Origin: Octopus sinensis
Lineage: Eukaryota
Direction of reading: 5' to 3'
DNA length: 15,211 bases
NCBI RefSeq assembly: GCF_006345805.1
Contig: NW_021825426.1
Coordinates: 1-15,211, forward strand
Part shown: positions 961 through 14,925 of the stretch, piece after piece
Layout: each line of letters opens with the position of its first letter
Position numbering within the stretch: the stretch's first letter is position 1
Made by a program: the position numbers and the translations under genes
The notes under the pieces: model-generated
What the model saw: the letters and a program-made list of their open reading frames with translations, nothing else
Told to the model about the DNA's origin: nothing
Database searches by the model: none

Positions 961-1199
961 AGGCGGTCGAGTTGGCAGAAACGTTAGCACGCCGGACGAA
1001 ATGCTTAGCGGTATTTCGTCTGCCTTTACGTTCTGAGTTCAAATTCCGCCGAGGTCGACTTTGCCTTTCATCCCTTCGAGGTCGATTAAATAAGTACTAG
1101 TTACGTAATGAGATCGATATAATCGACTTAATCCGTTTGTCTGTCCTTGTTTGTCCCCTCTATGTTTAACCCCTTGTGGACAATAAAGAAATAAGAAAG
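961..1199 (+). mobile_element. tRNA-derived SINE, family A (near full length)
   Basis: Head AGGCGGTCGAGTTGGCAGAA, B-box-like GAGTTCAAATTCC, core GAGGTCGACTTTGCCTTTCATCC...AATAAGTAC and A-rich end. At least 6 further copies align by eye within the window. Confidence 0.9.
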
Positions 1200-1794: not shown

Positions 1795-2400
1795 CTGTCT
1801 CCTCCCCAGCCTTCTCCCTATTCTCCTCCCTTCCTCCGCTCTTCCTCTTCATCTCCTCCTACTCCTCCTATTCTCCATTCTCCTCTTCTCCCCTTCCCTA
1901 CCTTCTTCTTCCCCTTCTCCCTCCTCTACTACCCCTCTCCCTCCTTCCCTTCTTCACATTCCCTCCCCTCCTTCCCCTCCTTCCCCTTCTCCCCATCCAC
2001 TTACCCCTCTTCCCTCCTCCCCTTCTTCCCCATCCAACCCTCCCCTCCTTCCCGAACCCTTCTCCCTTCTCCATTTTTATCCTCTTCCTCTTTCCCTTCT
2101 CCTTTCTCCTCTTCCCCCTCCTTTCTCCTTTTAGCCTCTTCCCCTTCCTTTCTCCTCCTCCTTCCCTGCCCCTTCATCATTCTCCCTCCTCTTCATTGAC
2201 TCTTCTCTTCATGCTCCCTTCTCTTCATTCTTCCTCCTTTTCTTCATTCTGCCTCCTCCTTTTACCCCACCTCTATCTCTTCCTTCCTCTCCCTCATTCT
2301 CCCTTCTCCTCTCTCCTTCTCATTCCCCCTCCCTCCCTCGTCTCCTCTTTATCAACTTCACCTATCCAATCATTTTCCTTTCTATGCCTTCTGTAACTCT
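1795..2400. repeat. About 600 bp polypyrimidine (C/T) low-complexity tract
   Basis: The + strand is almost entirely C/T (CCT, CTT and CCCT motifs). This explains the S/P/F/L-rich ORFs 1603-2199 and 2196-2396. Confidence 0.95.
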
Positions 2401-3745: not shown

Positions 3746-3938
3746 ATACATAGACGTAGGAGTGGGTGCGTGGTAAGAAGCTTGCTTCACAACAACATGG
3801 TTGCGGGTTCAGACCTACTGCGTGATACCTTGGGCAAGTGTCTTTTATTATAGCCTCGGGCCGACCAAAGCCTTGTGAGTAGATCTGGAAGACGGAAAAT
3901 GAAAGAAGCCCGTCGAATATATATATATATATGTATAT

Positions 3939-4065
3939 TTATTATATAGAAGGAGCTTCTACAGGACTAGAACTGTTTCATTCAAGAGAAATCTTCAGGA
4001 AGCTTCCTGAAGATTTCTCTTGAATGAACAGTTCTAGTCCTGTAGAAGCTCCTTCTATATAATAA
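3939..4065. repeat. 127 bp loop-less palindrome (64/63 bp arms, one 1-nt indel)
   Basis: Centre AAG|CTT between 4002 and 4003. The arms are exact reverse complements except GTTTC versus GTTC. Confidence 0.97.
3954..4004 (-). ncRNA. Minimal type I hammerhead ribozyme motif (Penelope pLTR type)
   Basis: Minus strand: AGCTTC-CTGAAGA-TTTCTCTTGAAT-GAAA-CAG-TTCTAGTC-CTG-TA/GAAGCT. It has a 6 bp stem I, a 4 bp stem III, a GUA cleavage triplet and a weak stem II. The mirror copy on + (about 4001-4050) lacks one A of GAAA. Confidence 0.75.
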
Positions 4066-4242
4066 TAATTTTACTCTGCTAGTATTGAGTACCTTATTTA
4101 CTGTGGTTAACCCGAATCAACCGGGACCTACATATATTATGTATATATATATATATATATATATGTTAATAAAAATAGAGCATATGCATATATAAACTAT
4201 ATGTACGTACCTACCTCTACATGTACATATACACGCATATGT

Positions 4243-5744: not shown

Positions 5745-5967
5745 AGGCGGCAAGCTGGCAGAATCGTTACCGCACAGGATGAAATGCTTAACCGAGCTTC
5801 TGCTCTTTCCATTCTTTCCGAGTTCAAATTCCGCTGAGGTCGACTTAGCCTTTCATTCTTTCACCATCGATATCATAAAGTACCAGTTGAGTACTGGGGT
5901 CGATATAATCGACTAGTATCCTCCCTCAAAATGTTAGGCTTTCGTGACTATACTAGAAAGGAGTATT
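5745..5967 (+). mobile_element. Family-A SINE
   Basis: AGGCGGCAAGCTGGCAGAATCGTT head, GAGTTCAAATTCC and GAGGTCGACTTAGCCTTTCA. Confidence 0.9.
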
Positions 5968-5982
5968 ACGCGTATATATTGA

Positions 5983-6232
5983 TTTCAAATTTTGGCATGG
6001 TACAAGGCCAGCAATGTAAGGGGTGGGGGTAAGTCCATTACATCGACCTCCAGTGTTCAACTGGCACTTATTTTATTGACCCAGTGCTCAACTGGTAATT
6101 GTTTTATCAACCCTGAAATGATAAAAAGGCAAAGTCGACCTCGGCAGAATCTGAACTCAGAACATAAAAGCAGACGAAATGCTGCTAAGCATTTTTCCCA
6201 GCGTGCAAACCGATTCTGCTAGCTTGCCGCCT
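5983..6232 (-). mobile_element. Family-A SINE with an internal tandem duplication of about 32 bp
   Basis: Reverse complement of family A, ending GCTAGCTTGCCGCCT. The unit CCAGTG.TCAACTGG.A.TT.TTTTAT occurs twice at about 6044-6110. Confidence 0.9.
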
Positions 6233-7092: not shown

Positions 7093-7352
7093 GAGCTGGC
7101 AGAATCGTTACTATGGCAATAGTTCGAATACTTATTGAGTGAGCTGGCAGAATCGTTGCCAACCGATCCAAATACTTAGCTGTGTTTCTTCCAGTTTTAC
7201 ATATTAGGTTCAAATTCTGCTGAGGTCGACTTTGCCTTTCATGCTTTCGGTGTCAATAAAATAAGTACCAGTTGAGCACCGGAATCACTGTAATTAACTA
7301 GCACCACCCCTAAATTTCAGGTTTCATGCCTTATAATCGAAAGGATCATTAT
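7093..7352 (+). mobile_element. Family-A SINE fused to the mariner end through a junction duplication
   Basis: GAGCTGGCAGAATCGTT head (twice), GGTTCAAATTCTGCTGAGGTCGACTTTGCCTTTCAT and AATAAGTACCAGT. Confidence 0.85.
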
Positions 7353-9951: not shown

Positions 9952-10250
9952 TGAAGGAATGATACAAAGTAGCATTCAACATATTTGTCTGGAGATACAC
10001 GCATTCAGTAATAGTTTGACTCAGCGCCAGTCTGCATCGCGGAACATCTGATATATATATATATATATATATTTCCGTCTTTCCTGAGCGTCCAATAATG
10101 CTATATTTGTTCCACGTGCTCGCGTTGTTGTGTTTTTTTGTGCTTTCTTGTTTGGATTAACTTTATATATATATATATGTATATATATATACGAGCGAGC
10201 AGAGAAACTGAAAGAATGGTACTCAACACATTTATTGGAAGTTAAATGTG

Positions 10251-10414
10251 TGGATCAAACAGATTGATTCAAATTCCTTGGTACTTTAAGTTTCAAGCGT
10301 TATGCTAGTCGTCAGCCACTTGAATTAGAATATATTCTAATTCCAATGGCTGAAGACGAGCATCATGCTTGAGACTTAAAGTACCAAAGAATCTGAATCA
10401 ATCTGCTTGATCCA
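10251..10414. repeat. 164 bp loop-less palindrome (82 bp arms, about 10 mismatches)
   Basis: TGGATCAAACAGATTGATTC...AGAATA|TATTCT...GAATCAATCTGCTTGATCCA, with the centre between 10332 and 10333 and no indels. Confidence 0.95.
10267..10331 (-). ncRNA. Minimal type I hammerhead ribozyme motif
   Basis: Minus strand: ATTCTAATTCAAGTGG-CTGACGA-CTAGCATAACGCTT-GAAA-CTTAAAG-TA/CCAAGGAATTTGAAT. It has an extended stem I, a near-palindromic stem III and a GUA triplet. The mirror on + has CTGAAGA (10350-10356) but GAGA in place of GAAA (10371-10374). Confidence 0.75.
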
Positions 10415-10645
10415 TCCATCCATCCATCCATCCATCCATCCATCCATCCATCCATCCATCCATCCATGCATGCATGCATGCATGCATGCATACATACATA
10501 CATACATACATACATACATACATACATACATACATACATACATGCATGCATGCATACATACATACATACATACATACATACGTACATACATACATACAGA
10601 CATACATGCATACATATTTATATATAAATACATATTTATATATAC
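10409..10645. repeat. Compound (CCAT)n(GCAT)n(ACAT)n tetranucleotide microsatellite
   Basis: Direct reading. Confidence 0.95.
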
Positions 10646-10647
10646 GT

Positions 10648-12228
10648 ACAGCATATGGAAGAAGTTTAGGGACCACAAAAATCAGGAGAGGCATCTTCCA
10701 AGGGGACTGCCTATCCTTAATGATCTTTGCACTGTTCATGATGCCACTAACACTGATTCTAAGGAAAGCAAAAGCTGGGTATGTATCCAAGAGCCGCCAA
10801 CAAAAAGTCAATCATTTGTTATTCATGAATGACCTCAAACTTTATGGTAAAGATAAATTCCAAGTCAGTTCCCTCGTTGATACGGTGTATACTTTCAGTG
10901 TTGATATCCGAATGGAGTTCGGACTGAAAAAGTGTGGTGTGTTAGTCTTCAAGAGAGGCAAAATCAAATGAATGGACGGGCTAGCGATACCGTCGGGAGA
11001 GGTTACGAAGCAAATAGAAGAGACGGGCGATAAGTACTTGGGGATATTGGAAATGGATAAATTGATGGAGAAAGAAATGACAGAAAAATTTAAGGTGGAG
11101 TACTTGCGCAGACTGAGACTGATACTTAAGTTGAAATGAAACTGACGGAATAAGATTGAAGCTCTCAAATCTTAGGCGGTTTCACTCTTAAGATATGGAG
11201 TAGGGGTAATCGCATGAACTGTAGACGAACTAAACAGCTTAGACAGATAGACAAGGCACTTGCTGACTAAATATGGAATACTCCAACCAAAAAGTGACAC
11301 AGACAGACTGTCTGTGCCAAGAAAAAGACGGGGAAGAGGACTGATTGGATGCGAACACAGCATTATAGCAGAGAAAACCAACATGCGCGTAGCATGGTAT
11401 GTAAAAATGCTACAGTACTATTCTAATGTAGGATGGAACATTGCAAAGATAGCGCACTGTACAAGTACTTGAGAATGAATGAAACTGAAAAATAGGTGGA
11501 TAAAGAAAAGAATGCATGGGCAATTCCATAGGGATGTTGAAGACAGAGAAAAAAGATGGCTATGGATGACTAAAAGTGATTTAAAACCGGACACGGATGT
11601 TCTAATCTGTGATGCCTAAGTGCAAGCATTAAGAACCAATTACATCAAATACAGAATAGATAACACACCAGAAAGTGATAAATGCCGAATTTGTGGATAA
11701 AACGGTAAAACTCTATGGCATATTACCAGTCAATGTACACCACTAGCCCAGAAAGAATATAAGAGACATCATGACAATTTAGCAAGGCCTGTCCATTGGT
11801 CACTTTGTAACAGGTATGGACTTGACAGAGAAAAAATGTGGTACGAACATAATCCCGAAGGCATCATCGAAAATGATAATGCAAAGATCCTATGGGATTT
11901 TATGATTCAGTGCGACCATAATCTAGAGAATAGGAAACCAGACATAGTATTAATTGAGAAAGAAAGCAAACAATGCTGGATCATAGATATAGCATGCCCA
12001 GCTGACAACAAGGTATGCTATAAAGAAGAAAGAAAAGTCGATAGATATAATAGGTTAGCTTCGGAAGGTAAGCAGTTGTGGTCGCTGAAAAAGGTGGCAG
12101 TAGTACCAATAGTTGTCGGAGCCCTGTGAACAGTGAGTAAATATATTGAGAAGTACATGGAACAAATAGGGCTGCAATAAGGGTGGAGCATTTGCAGAAA
12201 ACCGCACTGCTTGGAACCACACGAAAAT
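10648..12228 (+). mobile_element. 5'-truncated, pseudogenised R4/Dong-clade non-LTR retrotransposon (RT + CCHC + restriction-like endonuclease)
   Basis: [24 protein letters not shown] (MDD mutated, 10822-10833), MEFGLKKC, KYLGILE, GRGL, MHGQF, CRIC...WHITSQC knuckle (11683-11736), RHHDN, LWDF, RKPDIVL...IDIACP (PD-(D/E)xK), PIVVGAL and LQKTALLGT. It has many stops and frameshifts. Confidence 0.92.
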
Positions 12229-12261
12229 GTCGACATACACGTGGAACCACACGTGTATGTC

Positions 12262-12408
12262 TATATTGCCCCTTCCGTTTCCCAGTTCGAAAGGGATGCC
12301 CCTCGACTGTTCTAACTTCCGCAGCAGTGGCTCGAGTGCCAATACGTACAGAAGAGGCGACAGCAAGTGTTCCAAACAGTTCCGATAAGTGATCGTTTAC
12401 TTTGACCC
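12262..12408 (-). mobile_element. Short L1/Tx1-clade reverse transcriptase fragment
   Basis: The minus strand encodes VKVNDHLSELF and then, after a deletion of the RQGCP segment, LSPLLYVLALEPLLRKL...GIP. This is a characteristic L1/Tx1 RT motif. Confidence 0.8.
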
Positions 12409-12410
12409 CC

Positions 12411-12509: not shown

Positions 12510-12682
12510 TTTTGCCACGAGGGCAGCTTTGGGGAAGGGGAATAAGTCGATTACGTCGACACCAGTGTGTAACTGGTACTTATTTAATCGACTCCGAAAG
12601 GCAAAGTCGACCTCGGTGAAATTTGAACTTAGATCGTAAAAACGGAAGAAACATTGCTTGGTATTTTGCAAGGTCGCCGCCT
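12510..12682 (-). mobile_element. Family-A SINE with internal deletions
   Basis: AACTGGTACTTATTTAATCGAC...AAAGGCAAAGTCGACCTCGG...ATTTGAACT...TCGCCGCCT. Confidence 0.85.
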
Positions 12683-12683
12683 C

Positions 12684-12723
<40 letters not shown>

Positions 12724-12743
12724 TGATGGTGATGATGATGATA

Positions 12744-12965
12744 ATAATCTTTTCTACTTGAGAAGCAAGGCCTCAAATTTAGCGGAGAGGGGACTAGTCG
12801 ATTAAATCAACCCCAGTGTTTCATTGGTACTTAATTTATCGACCGCGAAATTGATGAAACGGAAAGCCGATCTCGGCGGAATTTGAACTCAGAACACGTA
12901 GCGACGAGTGAAATACCACTCAGCATTTCGCCCGGCGTGCTAACTTTTCTGCCAGCTCGCCGCCT
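12744..12965 (-). mobile_element. Family-A SINE, full length
   Basis: GGTACTTAATTTATCGAC...CTCGGCGGAATTTGAACTCAGAAC...CTGCCAGCTCGCCGCCT, flanked by (TAA)/(TGA) repeats. Confidence 0.9.
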
Positions 12966-14713: not shown

Positions 14714-14925
14714 AAGAGGTCGCAAAATCACTAGCATGCCGCGACAACTGCTTTGCAGTACTTCATGCGTTTTTACGGTCTGAGTTCAAATTTCGCCGAA
14801 GTTGACTTTGCCCCTCATCCTATCGAGGGTGATAAAATAAGTATCAGTCGAGCACTGAGATAAATGTAATCGACTTACACTCTGCCCAAAATTGCTGGCT
14901 TTGTGCCAAAATTTGATGCCAATAT
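14714..14925 (+). mobile_element. Diverged family-A SINE
   Basis: CTGAGTTCAAATTTCGCCGAAGTTGACTTTGCCCCTCATCC...GATAAAATAAGTATCAGT...GTGCCAAAATTTGA. Confidence 0.85.

What the first reader, a model, noticed from the sequence alone, without database searches (positions are those of the whole stretch)
10191..10414. Loop-less 164 bp palindrome carrying a hammerhead ribozyme on each strand
Seen: two 82 bp arms meet head-to-head with no spacer. Each arm holds a minimal type I hammerhead pointing away from the centre. The minus-strand copy keeps CUGACGA, GAAA and GUA; the plus-strand copy has GAAA>GAGA. The left arm continues into a tail with minus-strand AATAAA (10231-10236) and ends in (TA)n. Known: Penelope-like elements carry minimal hammerheads in their pLTRs and often integrate with an inverted truncated pLTR. 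Inference: this is either such an inverted pLTR junction or a small non-autonomous, ambisense, retrozyme-like unit whose hairpin would compete with ribozyme folding.
Basis: partly seen in the sequence, partly recalled or inferred. Interest (0 to 1): 0.8.

Follow-up and report, generated by a model that had tools for sequence, protein, structure and literature searches.

The report
Mirror-image stump of Penelope retrotransposon
The palindrome with a hammerhead-ribozyme motif on each strand is real, but it is the two head-to-head end-pieces of a Penelope-type jumping gene, likely built anew at each insertion and likely a dead end; the unusual part is that such pieces stop far more often than chance at the edge of the ribozyme's first helix.

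Summary
Observation confirmed: centre 10332|10333, 72 of 82 positions pair, intact hammerhead core on minus, GAAA>GAGA on plus. It is the 3' end of a decayed Hydra-clade-type Penelope-like element (PLE). Other genomic copies link the same hammerhead in sense to an RT/endonuclease ORF (13 of 29 RT-anchored loci), with RWK, DKT and CxCX5C motifs. Spacers between arms range from 0 to 2.3 kb, 30 of 30 short centres differ, and arms of one copy are more alike than arms of different copies. So the palindrome is likely made at insertion, not copied as a unit; the retrozyme reading is not supported. Only one arm carries the ~60 nt tail (21 of 24 pairs), fitting the two published RT start sites. Less expected: arms stop at the 5' edge of hammerhead helix I (13-15 of 31-33 versus ~6% expected), not at the cut site (1 of 64). 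A second, young family with a copy at window 3935-4132 repeats this. This scan reported such PLE stumps before on other DNA (e1-7858806, e1-9995956).

The parts
10163..10190 (.). (TA)n target microsatellite at the tailed end
   Evidence: sequence; family ends lie in TA/CA/TG repeats
10191..10250 (-). [quoted passage not shown]
   Evidence: L092/L220: hammerhead, tail, ORF in one orientation; L103; L028 and L249 run on past the tail end
10251..10332 (-). tailed arm: 3' end of the PLE carrying a type I hammerhead
10267..10331 (-). hammerhead with intact core: helix I (10331-10316 with 10281-10267), CUGACGA 10315-10309, helix II 10308-10295, GAAA 10294-10291, helix III 10291-10283, predicted cut 10282|10281
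   Evidence: cleavage not tested
10332..10333 (.). palindrome centre; both arms end at the 5' edge of helix I, with two bases between them that are not in the parent's upstream sequence (inferred from related copies)
10333..10414 (+). tail-less arm: inverted copy of the same 3' end, ending at GATCCA
10334..10398 (+). hammerhead with damaged core (GAAA>GAGA at 10371-10374)
10413..10616 (.). (CATC)n/(CATG)n/(CATA)n microsatellite at the tail-less end
3935..4132 (.). second, independent, young PLE stump of the same design (centre 4002|4003, hammerhead core on each arm, tail on the + side); not part of the finding, used as a replicate

Best explanation
The 224 bp element is a severely 5'-truncated insertion of a Penelope-like retrotransposon with Hydra-clade motifs, made of two head-to-head copies of the element's hammerhead-bearing 3' end, likely produced in one insertion event and likely unable to move or self-cleave. 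Shown: family membership, linkage to the RT/endonuclease ORF, variable centres, within-copy arm similarity, one tail per pair, and a pile-up of arm ends at the 5' edge of helix I. Inferred, from the in vitro Poseidon system (PMC11167929): the protein nicks both strands of a (TA)n target and primes reverse transcription on each, one strand from the distal start site (tailed arm) and one from the proximal site ~55-60 nt upstream (tail-less arm). Inferred, from this work: synthesis often ends as helix I has just been copied, most likely because the new cDNA end is then complementary to earlier cDNA and leaves the RNA; the two short cDNAs are joined by 0-4 nt microhomology. The copy has since decayed neutrally (12% between arms).
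For: Same architecture across the genome (925 candidates, 40 scored; 161 exact matches to a 30-mer core pattern, 0 for the reversed control). Of 29 RT-anchored loci, 13 have a sense hammerhead downstream, 0 an antisense one downstream, 8 an antisense one upstream and 1 a sense one upstream. L220 shows hammerhead, tail and ORF in one orientation (tblastn E 1e-110). An intact relative folds most like telomerase RT. In 69 core-anchored loci, 28 had a BLAST-detected inverted partner, 13 with spacer <=60 and 15 with 132-2292 nt. 30 of 30 short centres are distinct; helix III is identical in both arms in 13 of 19 scorable pairs against 4.9 permuted, p=1e-4; same-copy arms differ 12.5% against 16.4-17.0% between copies (12.2 vs 16.5%, 34 pairs, p=1e-5). 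One tail per pair in 21 of 24 core-anchored pairs; the partner scored tail-less for 39 of 41 tail-anchored arms. Helix-I pile-up: 15 of 33 by script, 13 of 31 after dropping two over-run alignments, expected 5.8%, p<=7e-9. Young family: 9 of 28 pairs have gaps of 4-15 nt and none 16-181 nt. Through the palindrome, the helix I pair probability is about 1e-34 or lower.
Against: No copy with an intact ORF was found, so the parent is read from decayed copies. Pfam gave no RT or GIY-YIG hit for parent fragments or three intact relatives, and the PDB sequence search gave nothing. Rfam has no hammerhead hit. Covariation is weak (12 double-change cells vs 6.6 shuffled, 13/500; score 29/500). An arm's nearest neighbour is its own partner in only 13 of 68 cases. 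Most short-spacer pairs came from a search with the palindromic query, which favours them. No inverted partner was detected for 41 of 69 core-anchored and 31 of 72 tail-anchored arms; some were missed by thresholds, others may have lost it. The double-priming and cDNA-release steps were not tested.
Confidence: 0.88

Rival explanations
1. A small non-autonomous, ambisense unit that is transcribed and re-inserted as a whole palindrome, borrowing the PLE protein.
For: Compact palindromes are the commonest paired form: an inverted arm lies within 110 nt for 37 of 72 tail-anchored arms. In the young family the 40 best-scoring of 506 candidates are 98-100% identical across the centre.
Against: 30 of 30 old-family centres differ and there are no arm-specific lineages. 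In the unbiased young sample only 3 of 9 short junctions have the 8-nt gap, and that one forms at a self-complementary AGCT. The 1-nt deletion shared by 5 young copies sits on the tailed arm in 4 and the tail-less arm in 1, so it does not mark a lineage. The hairpin (-111 to -119 kcal/mol) would bury both ribozymes.
Confidence: 0.07
2. Single arms inserted first; the mirror arm arose later by fold-back repair, or the arms were homogenised by gene conversion.
For: Short-spacer pairs are slightly more alike than long-spacer ones (11.4% vs 15.2%, n=27 and 7, p=0.08). Some junctions (L261, L287, L154, L165) look like fold-back at helix I.
Against: Tail-less arms end at one fixed position followed by TA-type repeats. 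The tail can be on the shorter arm (L091, L108, L109, L226), which a copy of the first arm cannot give. Very young copies are already paired with one tail (14 of 14 inspected).
Confidence: 0.04
3. A palindromic MITE of a TA-targeting DNA transposon that happens to contain hammerhead-like words.
For: Short, TA-flanked, with inverted arms.
Against: The ends are unequal (tail on one side), lengths are variable, and the arms are continuous with an RT ORF.
Confidence: 0.01

Closest known systems
Hydra clade of C-terminal EN+ Penelope-like elements (Craig et al. 2021, PMC8557442; passages, section 11 and supplement part 2 of 59 read)
   Same: RWK, DKT and CxCX5C motifs; hammerhead near the 3' end; (TA)n targets; hammerhead layout atgg-ctgaNgaY...tgaa-actt-a-aagt-N-cca as in Penelope-4_HM. 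Penelope-13_HM is listed with an inverted 5'-truncated copy and a hammerhead on both strands.
   Different: The hammerhead sequence differs from all Hydra entries in File S2, including the cephalopod family Hydra-1_Obim; helix I is longer (3 bp, internal loop, ~10 bp). No tree was built against named Hydra proteins.
PLE insertion units with inverted pLTR and one-sided tail (Arkhipova et al. 2013, PMC3846280, passages; Cervera & de la Pena 2014, PMC4209133, parts 1-2 of 4)
   Same: Head-to-head inverted copy, palindromic junction, tail on only one arm. Dual hammerheads 100-700 bp apart on opposite strands were already reported and tied to truncated PLEs.
   Different: Here the spacer is zero, the tail is 55-60 nt rather than 30-40, and arm ends pile up at helix I.
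Poseidon PAc in vitro system (Frangieh et al. 2024, PMC11167929; parts 1-2 of 4 read)
   Same: Both target strands are cut and extended, AT-rich targets, two internal RT start sites whose spacing is the tail, and uncleaved RNA as template (here only 1 of 64 arms stops at the cut).
   Different: That study saw no difference in start site between strands; here the genomic pairs are coupled (one distal, one proximal). It does not describe termination at helix I in the parts read.
Non-LTR retrozymes (Cervera & de la Pena 2020, PMC7229834, passages; bioRxiv 10.64898/2026.07.22.740005, part 1 of 5)
   Same: Short, non-coding, type I hammerhead, PLE-related.
   Different: Retrozymes are head-to-tail tandem repeats of 150-450 bp that give circular RNA; this is head-to-head, with a coding parent and no shared unit.

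Membership tests
Hydra-clade PLE (parent family) | single ORF with a telomerase-like RT | tested here: met
   LYRDDG-type motif in 14 of 29 loci; 62 homologs at E<=1e-20; model of intact relative P0007 (pLDDT 89.7) has telomerases as its top five Foldseek hits. Pfam gave no hit.
Hydra-clade PLE (parent family) | C-terminal GIY-YIG endonuclease | tested here: inconclusive
   A conserved C-terminal domain with Y.GMT (15 of 29), CxxC and CxH follows the RT, but no profile or fold hit named it GIY-YIG.
Hydra-clade PLE (parent family) | RWK motif | tested here: met
   RRWKAF in L103, MCWKAF in L092; most loci do not reach this far (2 of 29); 10 of 28 long homologs.
Hydra-clade PLE (parent family) | DKG changed to DKT | tested here: met
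   DKTK in 4 of 29 loci; DK[TS] in 28 of 28 long homologs.
Hydra-clade PLE (parent family) | CxCX5C linker and no CCHH motif | tested here: met
   CNCRNPT[TM]C in 2 of 29 by strict pattern and decayed forms in others; 25 of 28 homologs; GIY-CxxC pattern in 0 of 29, a weak test on decayed copies.
Hydra-clade PLE (parent family) | hammerhead in the pLTR and (TA)n insertion preference | tested here: met
Hydra-clade PLE (parent family) | phylogenetic placement inside the clade | not tested
   No named Hydra protein was available as a stored sequence.
PLE insertion unit | inverted 5'-truncated copy at the 5' side, variable length, tail at one end only | tested here: met
Non-LTR retrozyme | head-to-tail tandem repeats, each with a hammerhead | tested here: not met
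   Arms are head-to-head; 1 of 69 core-anchored loci had a second same-sense arm nearby.
Non-LTR retrozyme | circular/monomeric RNA from self-cleavage | not testable with these tools
   Only assembled contigs were available.
Type I hammerhead ribozyme | CUGANGA, GAAA, UH core in three helices | tested here: met
   Minus arm intact; 88.4% of 896 cells pair in 45 family arms vs 20-48% when slid. The plus arm fails (GAGA).
Type I hammerhead ribozyme | G10.1-C11.1 closing pair of helix II (conserved in PLE min-HHRs per PMC4209133) | tested here: not met
   U and U at those columns; many Hydra entries in File S2 also lack it.
Type I hammerhead ribozyme | self-cleavage | not testable with these tools
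   Needs a transcription assay.

The most novel reading that the evidence does not exclude
[quoted passage not shown] This would give PLE hammerheads a role that does not need cleavage and explain the palindromic junctions of PLE insertions.
Probability: 0.3. Interest if true: 0.6.

Novelty: new member of a known kind. Interest (0 to 1): 0.3.

Why it matters
As a feature it is ordinary: a by-product of PLE insertion of a type in print since 2013-2014, from a Hydra-type family not listed in PMC8557442 File S2. Its value is as a mechanistic readout. How PLEs make head-to-head repeats, and what their hammerheads do, are stated open questions (PMC8557442, PMC11167929). Two unrelated families in this genome show the same two rules: one tail per pair, and arm ends at the edge of helix I rather than at the cut. 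I did not find the second rule in six full-text searches (open-access library only, so Arkhipova 2006 and other subscription papers were not searched). The young family (about 2,000 exact arm matches) makes both rules countable at base resolution.

Tried and rejected
Rfam scan: no hammerhead family, only microsatellite/miRNA noise. Pfam on parent fragments and intact relatives, and a PDB profile search: nothing useful. RNA evidence: no RNA holder listed; laying four contig sets gave family-level matches only, no piece spanning the whole stretch, and cannot show starts, ends or strand - neither for nor against expression. The GIY-YIG fragment beside L048 was tested as the parent's endonuclease and rejected: none of 29 other loci of that family had the hammerhead arm. 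The RT fragment at window 10640-12400 is not the parent: no tblastn or blastn match to the family. Pile-up at the ribozyme cut: rejected, 1 of 64. An Initiator-like TCATTC (consensus recalled) at the old family's boundary suggested a transcription start, but the young family has a different sequence there and the same boundary, so it is not favoured. Simple cDNA fold-back as the only mechanism: rejected because the tail can lie on the shorter arm. One search opened an unrelated paper by a misremembered id. A look-up by sequence in earlier scan notes found nothing.

Full report
1. Observation. The palindrome is at the stated place: centre 10332|10333, 72 of 82 positions complementary against 13-29 for neighbouring centres. 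The minus arm has CUGACGA, GAAA and GUA with the cut at 10282|10281; the plus arm has GAGA; the tail 10250-10191 holds AATAAA and meets (TA)n. The 12% difference between arms argues against an assembly fold-back. Rfam did not call a hammerhead. In 45 family arms the type I structure pairs in 88.4% of cells against 20-48% when slid; covariation is weak overall and clear only at one helix III pair (28 CG, 7 UA, 5 UG). The layout matches the Hydra-clade hammerheads tabulated in PMC8557442 File S2, including the ACUU-A-AAGU helix III. By PMC4209133 such a helix III implies dimer-dependent, weak cleavage.

2. It is a family. The 224-mer has 925 candidates in the own genome (40 scored), most top hits with the same one-sided tail. 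To avoid selecting for palindromes I sampled by a core pattern (161 matches; 69 loci from listed matches 31-100 fetched with 3 kb flanks) and by a tail pattern (72 matches, all fetched). In the core set 28 of 69 had a BLAST-detected inverted partner, 13 within 60 nt and 15 at 132-2292 nt; unpaired arms ran up to 1.8 kb upstream.

3. The parent. Upstream sequence leads through a non-coding region into a decayed ORF. Of 29 RT-anchored loci (30 fetched, one duplicate dropped), 13 have the hammerhead downstream in sense, none downstream in antisense, 8 upstream in antisense and 1 upstream in sense. In L092/L220 the order is hammerhead, tail, ORF, so the tail is the start of the next unit. The ORF carries RWK, DKT, LYRDDG, CxCX5C, CxxC and CxH, the diagnostic set for the Hydra clade (PMC8557442 section 11). 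Intact 700-aa relatives exist; one folds most like telomerase RT. Pfam and a PDB profile search gave nothing, so the GIY-YIG identity and the clade placement rest on motifs. The window holds none of the parent beyond arm and tail. No tool named the host; the cephalopod family Hydra-1_Obim in File S2 has a different hammerhead.

4. Made at insertion, not copied as a unit. Arms in one copy differ by 12.2% against 16.5% between copies (34 pairs, p=1e-5). Tailed-tailed, short-short and tailed-short comparisons between copies are equal (17.0, 16.4, 16.8%); helix III variants agree within a copy in 13 of 19 scorable pairs of 33 (permuted 4.9, p=1e-4); 30 of 30 short centres are distinct. Against: only 13 of 68 arms have their partner as nearest neighbour, and many of these pairs came from the palindrome-biased search. 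A transcript through the element folds into one hairpin (-111 to -119 kcal/mol) with helix I probability about 1e-34 or lower, so neither ribozyme would be expected to fold.

5. Mechanism. PMC11167929 showed that a Poseidon PLE protein cuts and extends both strands of AT-rich DNA and starts at two internal sites whose spacing is the tail, using uncleaved RNA. The family fits. Exactly one arm is tailed in 21 of 24 core-anchored pairs (p=1.4e-4 against 0.5), and the partner scored tail-less for 39 of 41 tail-anchored arms, one of them borderline. The tail can be on the shorter arm (L091, L108, L109, L226), which simple fold-back cannot give. I therefore infer double priming with coupled start sites, then joining of the two cDNAs by short microhomology. 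This step is inferred, not shown.

6. The unexpected regularity. Among 72 tail-anchored arms, 15 of the 33 that reach helix I's 5' strand stop within 72-75 nt, at its edge; two are alignment over-runs (L235, L252), leaving 13 of 31; expected 5.8%, p<=7e-9. Only 1 of 64 stops at the ribozyme cut. The window copy is the case where both arms stop at that edge. A second palindrome in the window (3935-4132) belongs to a young family (1,984 exact 44-mer matches) whose endonuclease fragment also has CxCX5C (L355). Among the first 100 listed matches, 28 head-to-head pairs have gaps of 4, 7, 7, 7, 8, 8, 8, 11, 15 and then 182-5927 nt, the short ones all ending in or at helix I; 14 of 14 pairs I chose to inspect have one tail. 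The upstream sequences of the two families are unrelated, so the shared cue is likely the helix. Candidate causes: release of the cDNA end once it can pair with the earlier copy of helix I (junctions L261, L287, L154, L165 look like that switch; favoured); an RNA 5' end at that point; or later deletion of palindrome centres (less likely for the young family). These data do not separate them.

7. Comparison and verdict. Inverted truncated pLTRs, palindromic junctions and one-sided tails are described in PMC3846280 (passages) and PMC8557442 (passages); opposite-strand hammerhead pairs in PMC4209133 and for Penelope-13_HM. Retrozymes are head-to-tail tandem repeats (PMC7229834 passages; bioRxiv 10.64898/2026.07.22.740005 part 1; its supplements are closed), a feature not met here. 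PMC8969392 (passages) gives the same general PLE description. Two earlier scan notes on other genomes reached the same reading; I had formed mine before seeing them. Verdict: real feature, ordinary origin, new family of a known kind, with one testable mechanistic lead. Interest 0.3.

Noticed in passing
window 3935-4132 (centre 4002|4003): Second loop-less palindrome with a full type I hammerhead on each arm (helix III of 4 bp with an 8-nt loop) and a one-sided ~70 nt tail, from a young Hydra-like PLE family: 1,984 exact 44-mer matches, 40 best of 506 candidates 98-100% identical. A better system than the finding itself for junction analysis; no intact ORF seen in six long copies.
   Followed up: partly
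window 10640-12410 (+): Decayed, 5'-truncated non-LTR retrotransposon (RVT_1 E 9e-6; C-terminal PD-(D/E)xK-like segment by eye) ending in (ATA)n; R4/Dong-like by recall only. No homology to the PLE family.
   Followed up: partly
L048:880-1150 (-) and L122-L150: Another abundant family with a GIY-YIG-like fragment (1,504 candidates, 88-92% identity), not linked to this hammerhead.
   Followed up: partly
window 969-1130, 5816-5878, 6125-6210, 7140-7301, 14716-14877, 12520-12960: Several dispersed copies of SINE-like repeats in both orientations; octopus-like by recall, not tested.
   Followed up: no
L020/L027 and L290: Local tandem duplications (about 1.17 kb and 2.4 kb) that each duplicate a whole family copy.
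   Followed up: no
L021, L241, L261: Rare copies with a tail on both arms or nested arms, exceptions to the one-tail rule.
   Followed up: no
window 1880-2350: Long pyrimidine-rich low-complexity tract with strong strand skew.
   Followed up: no
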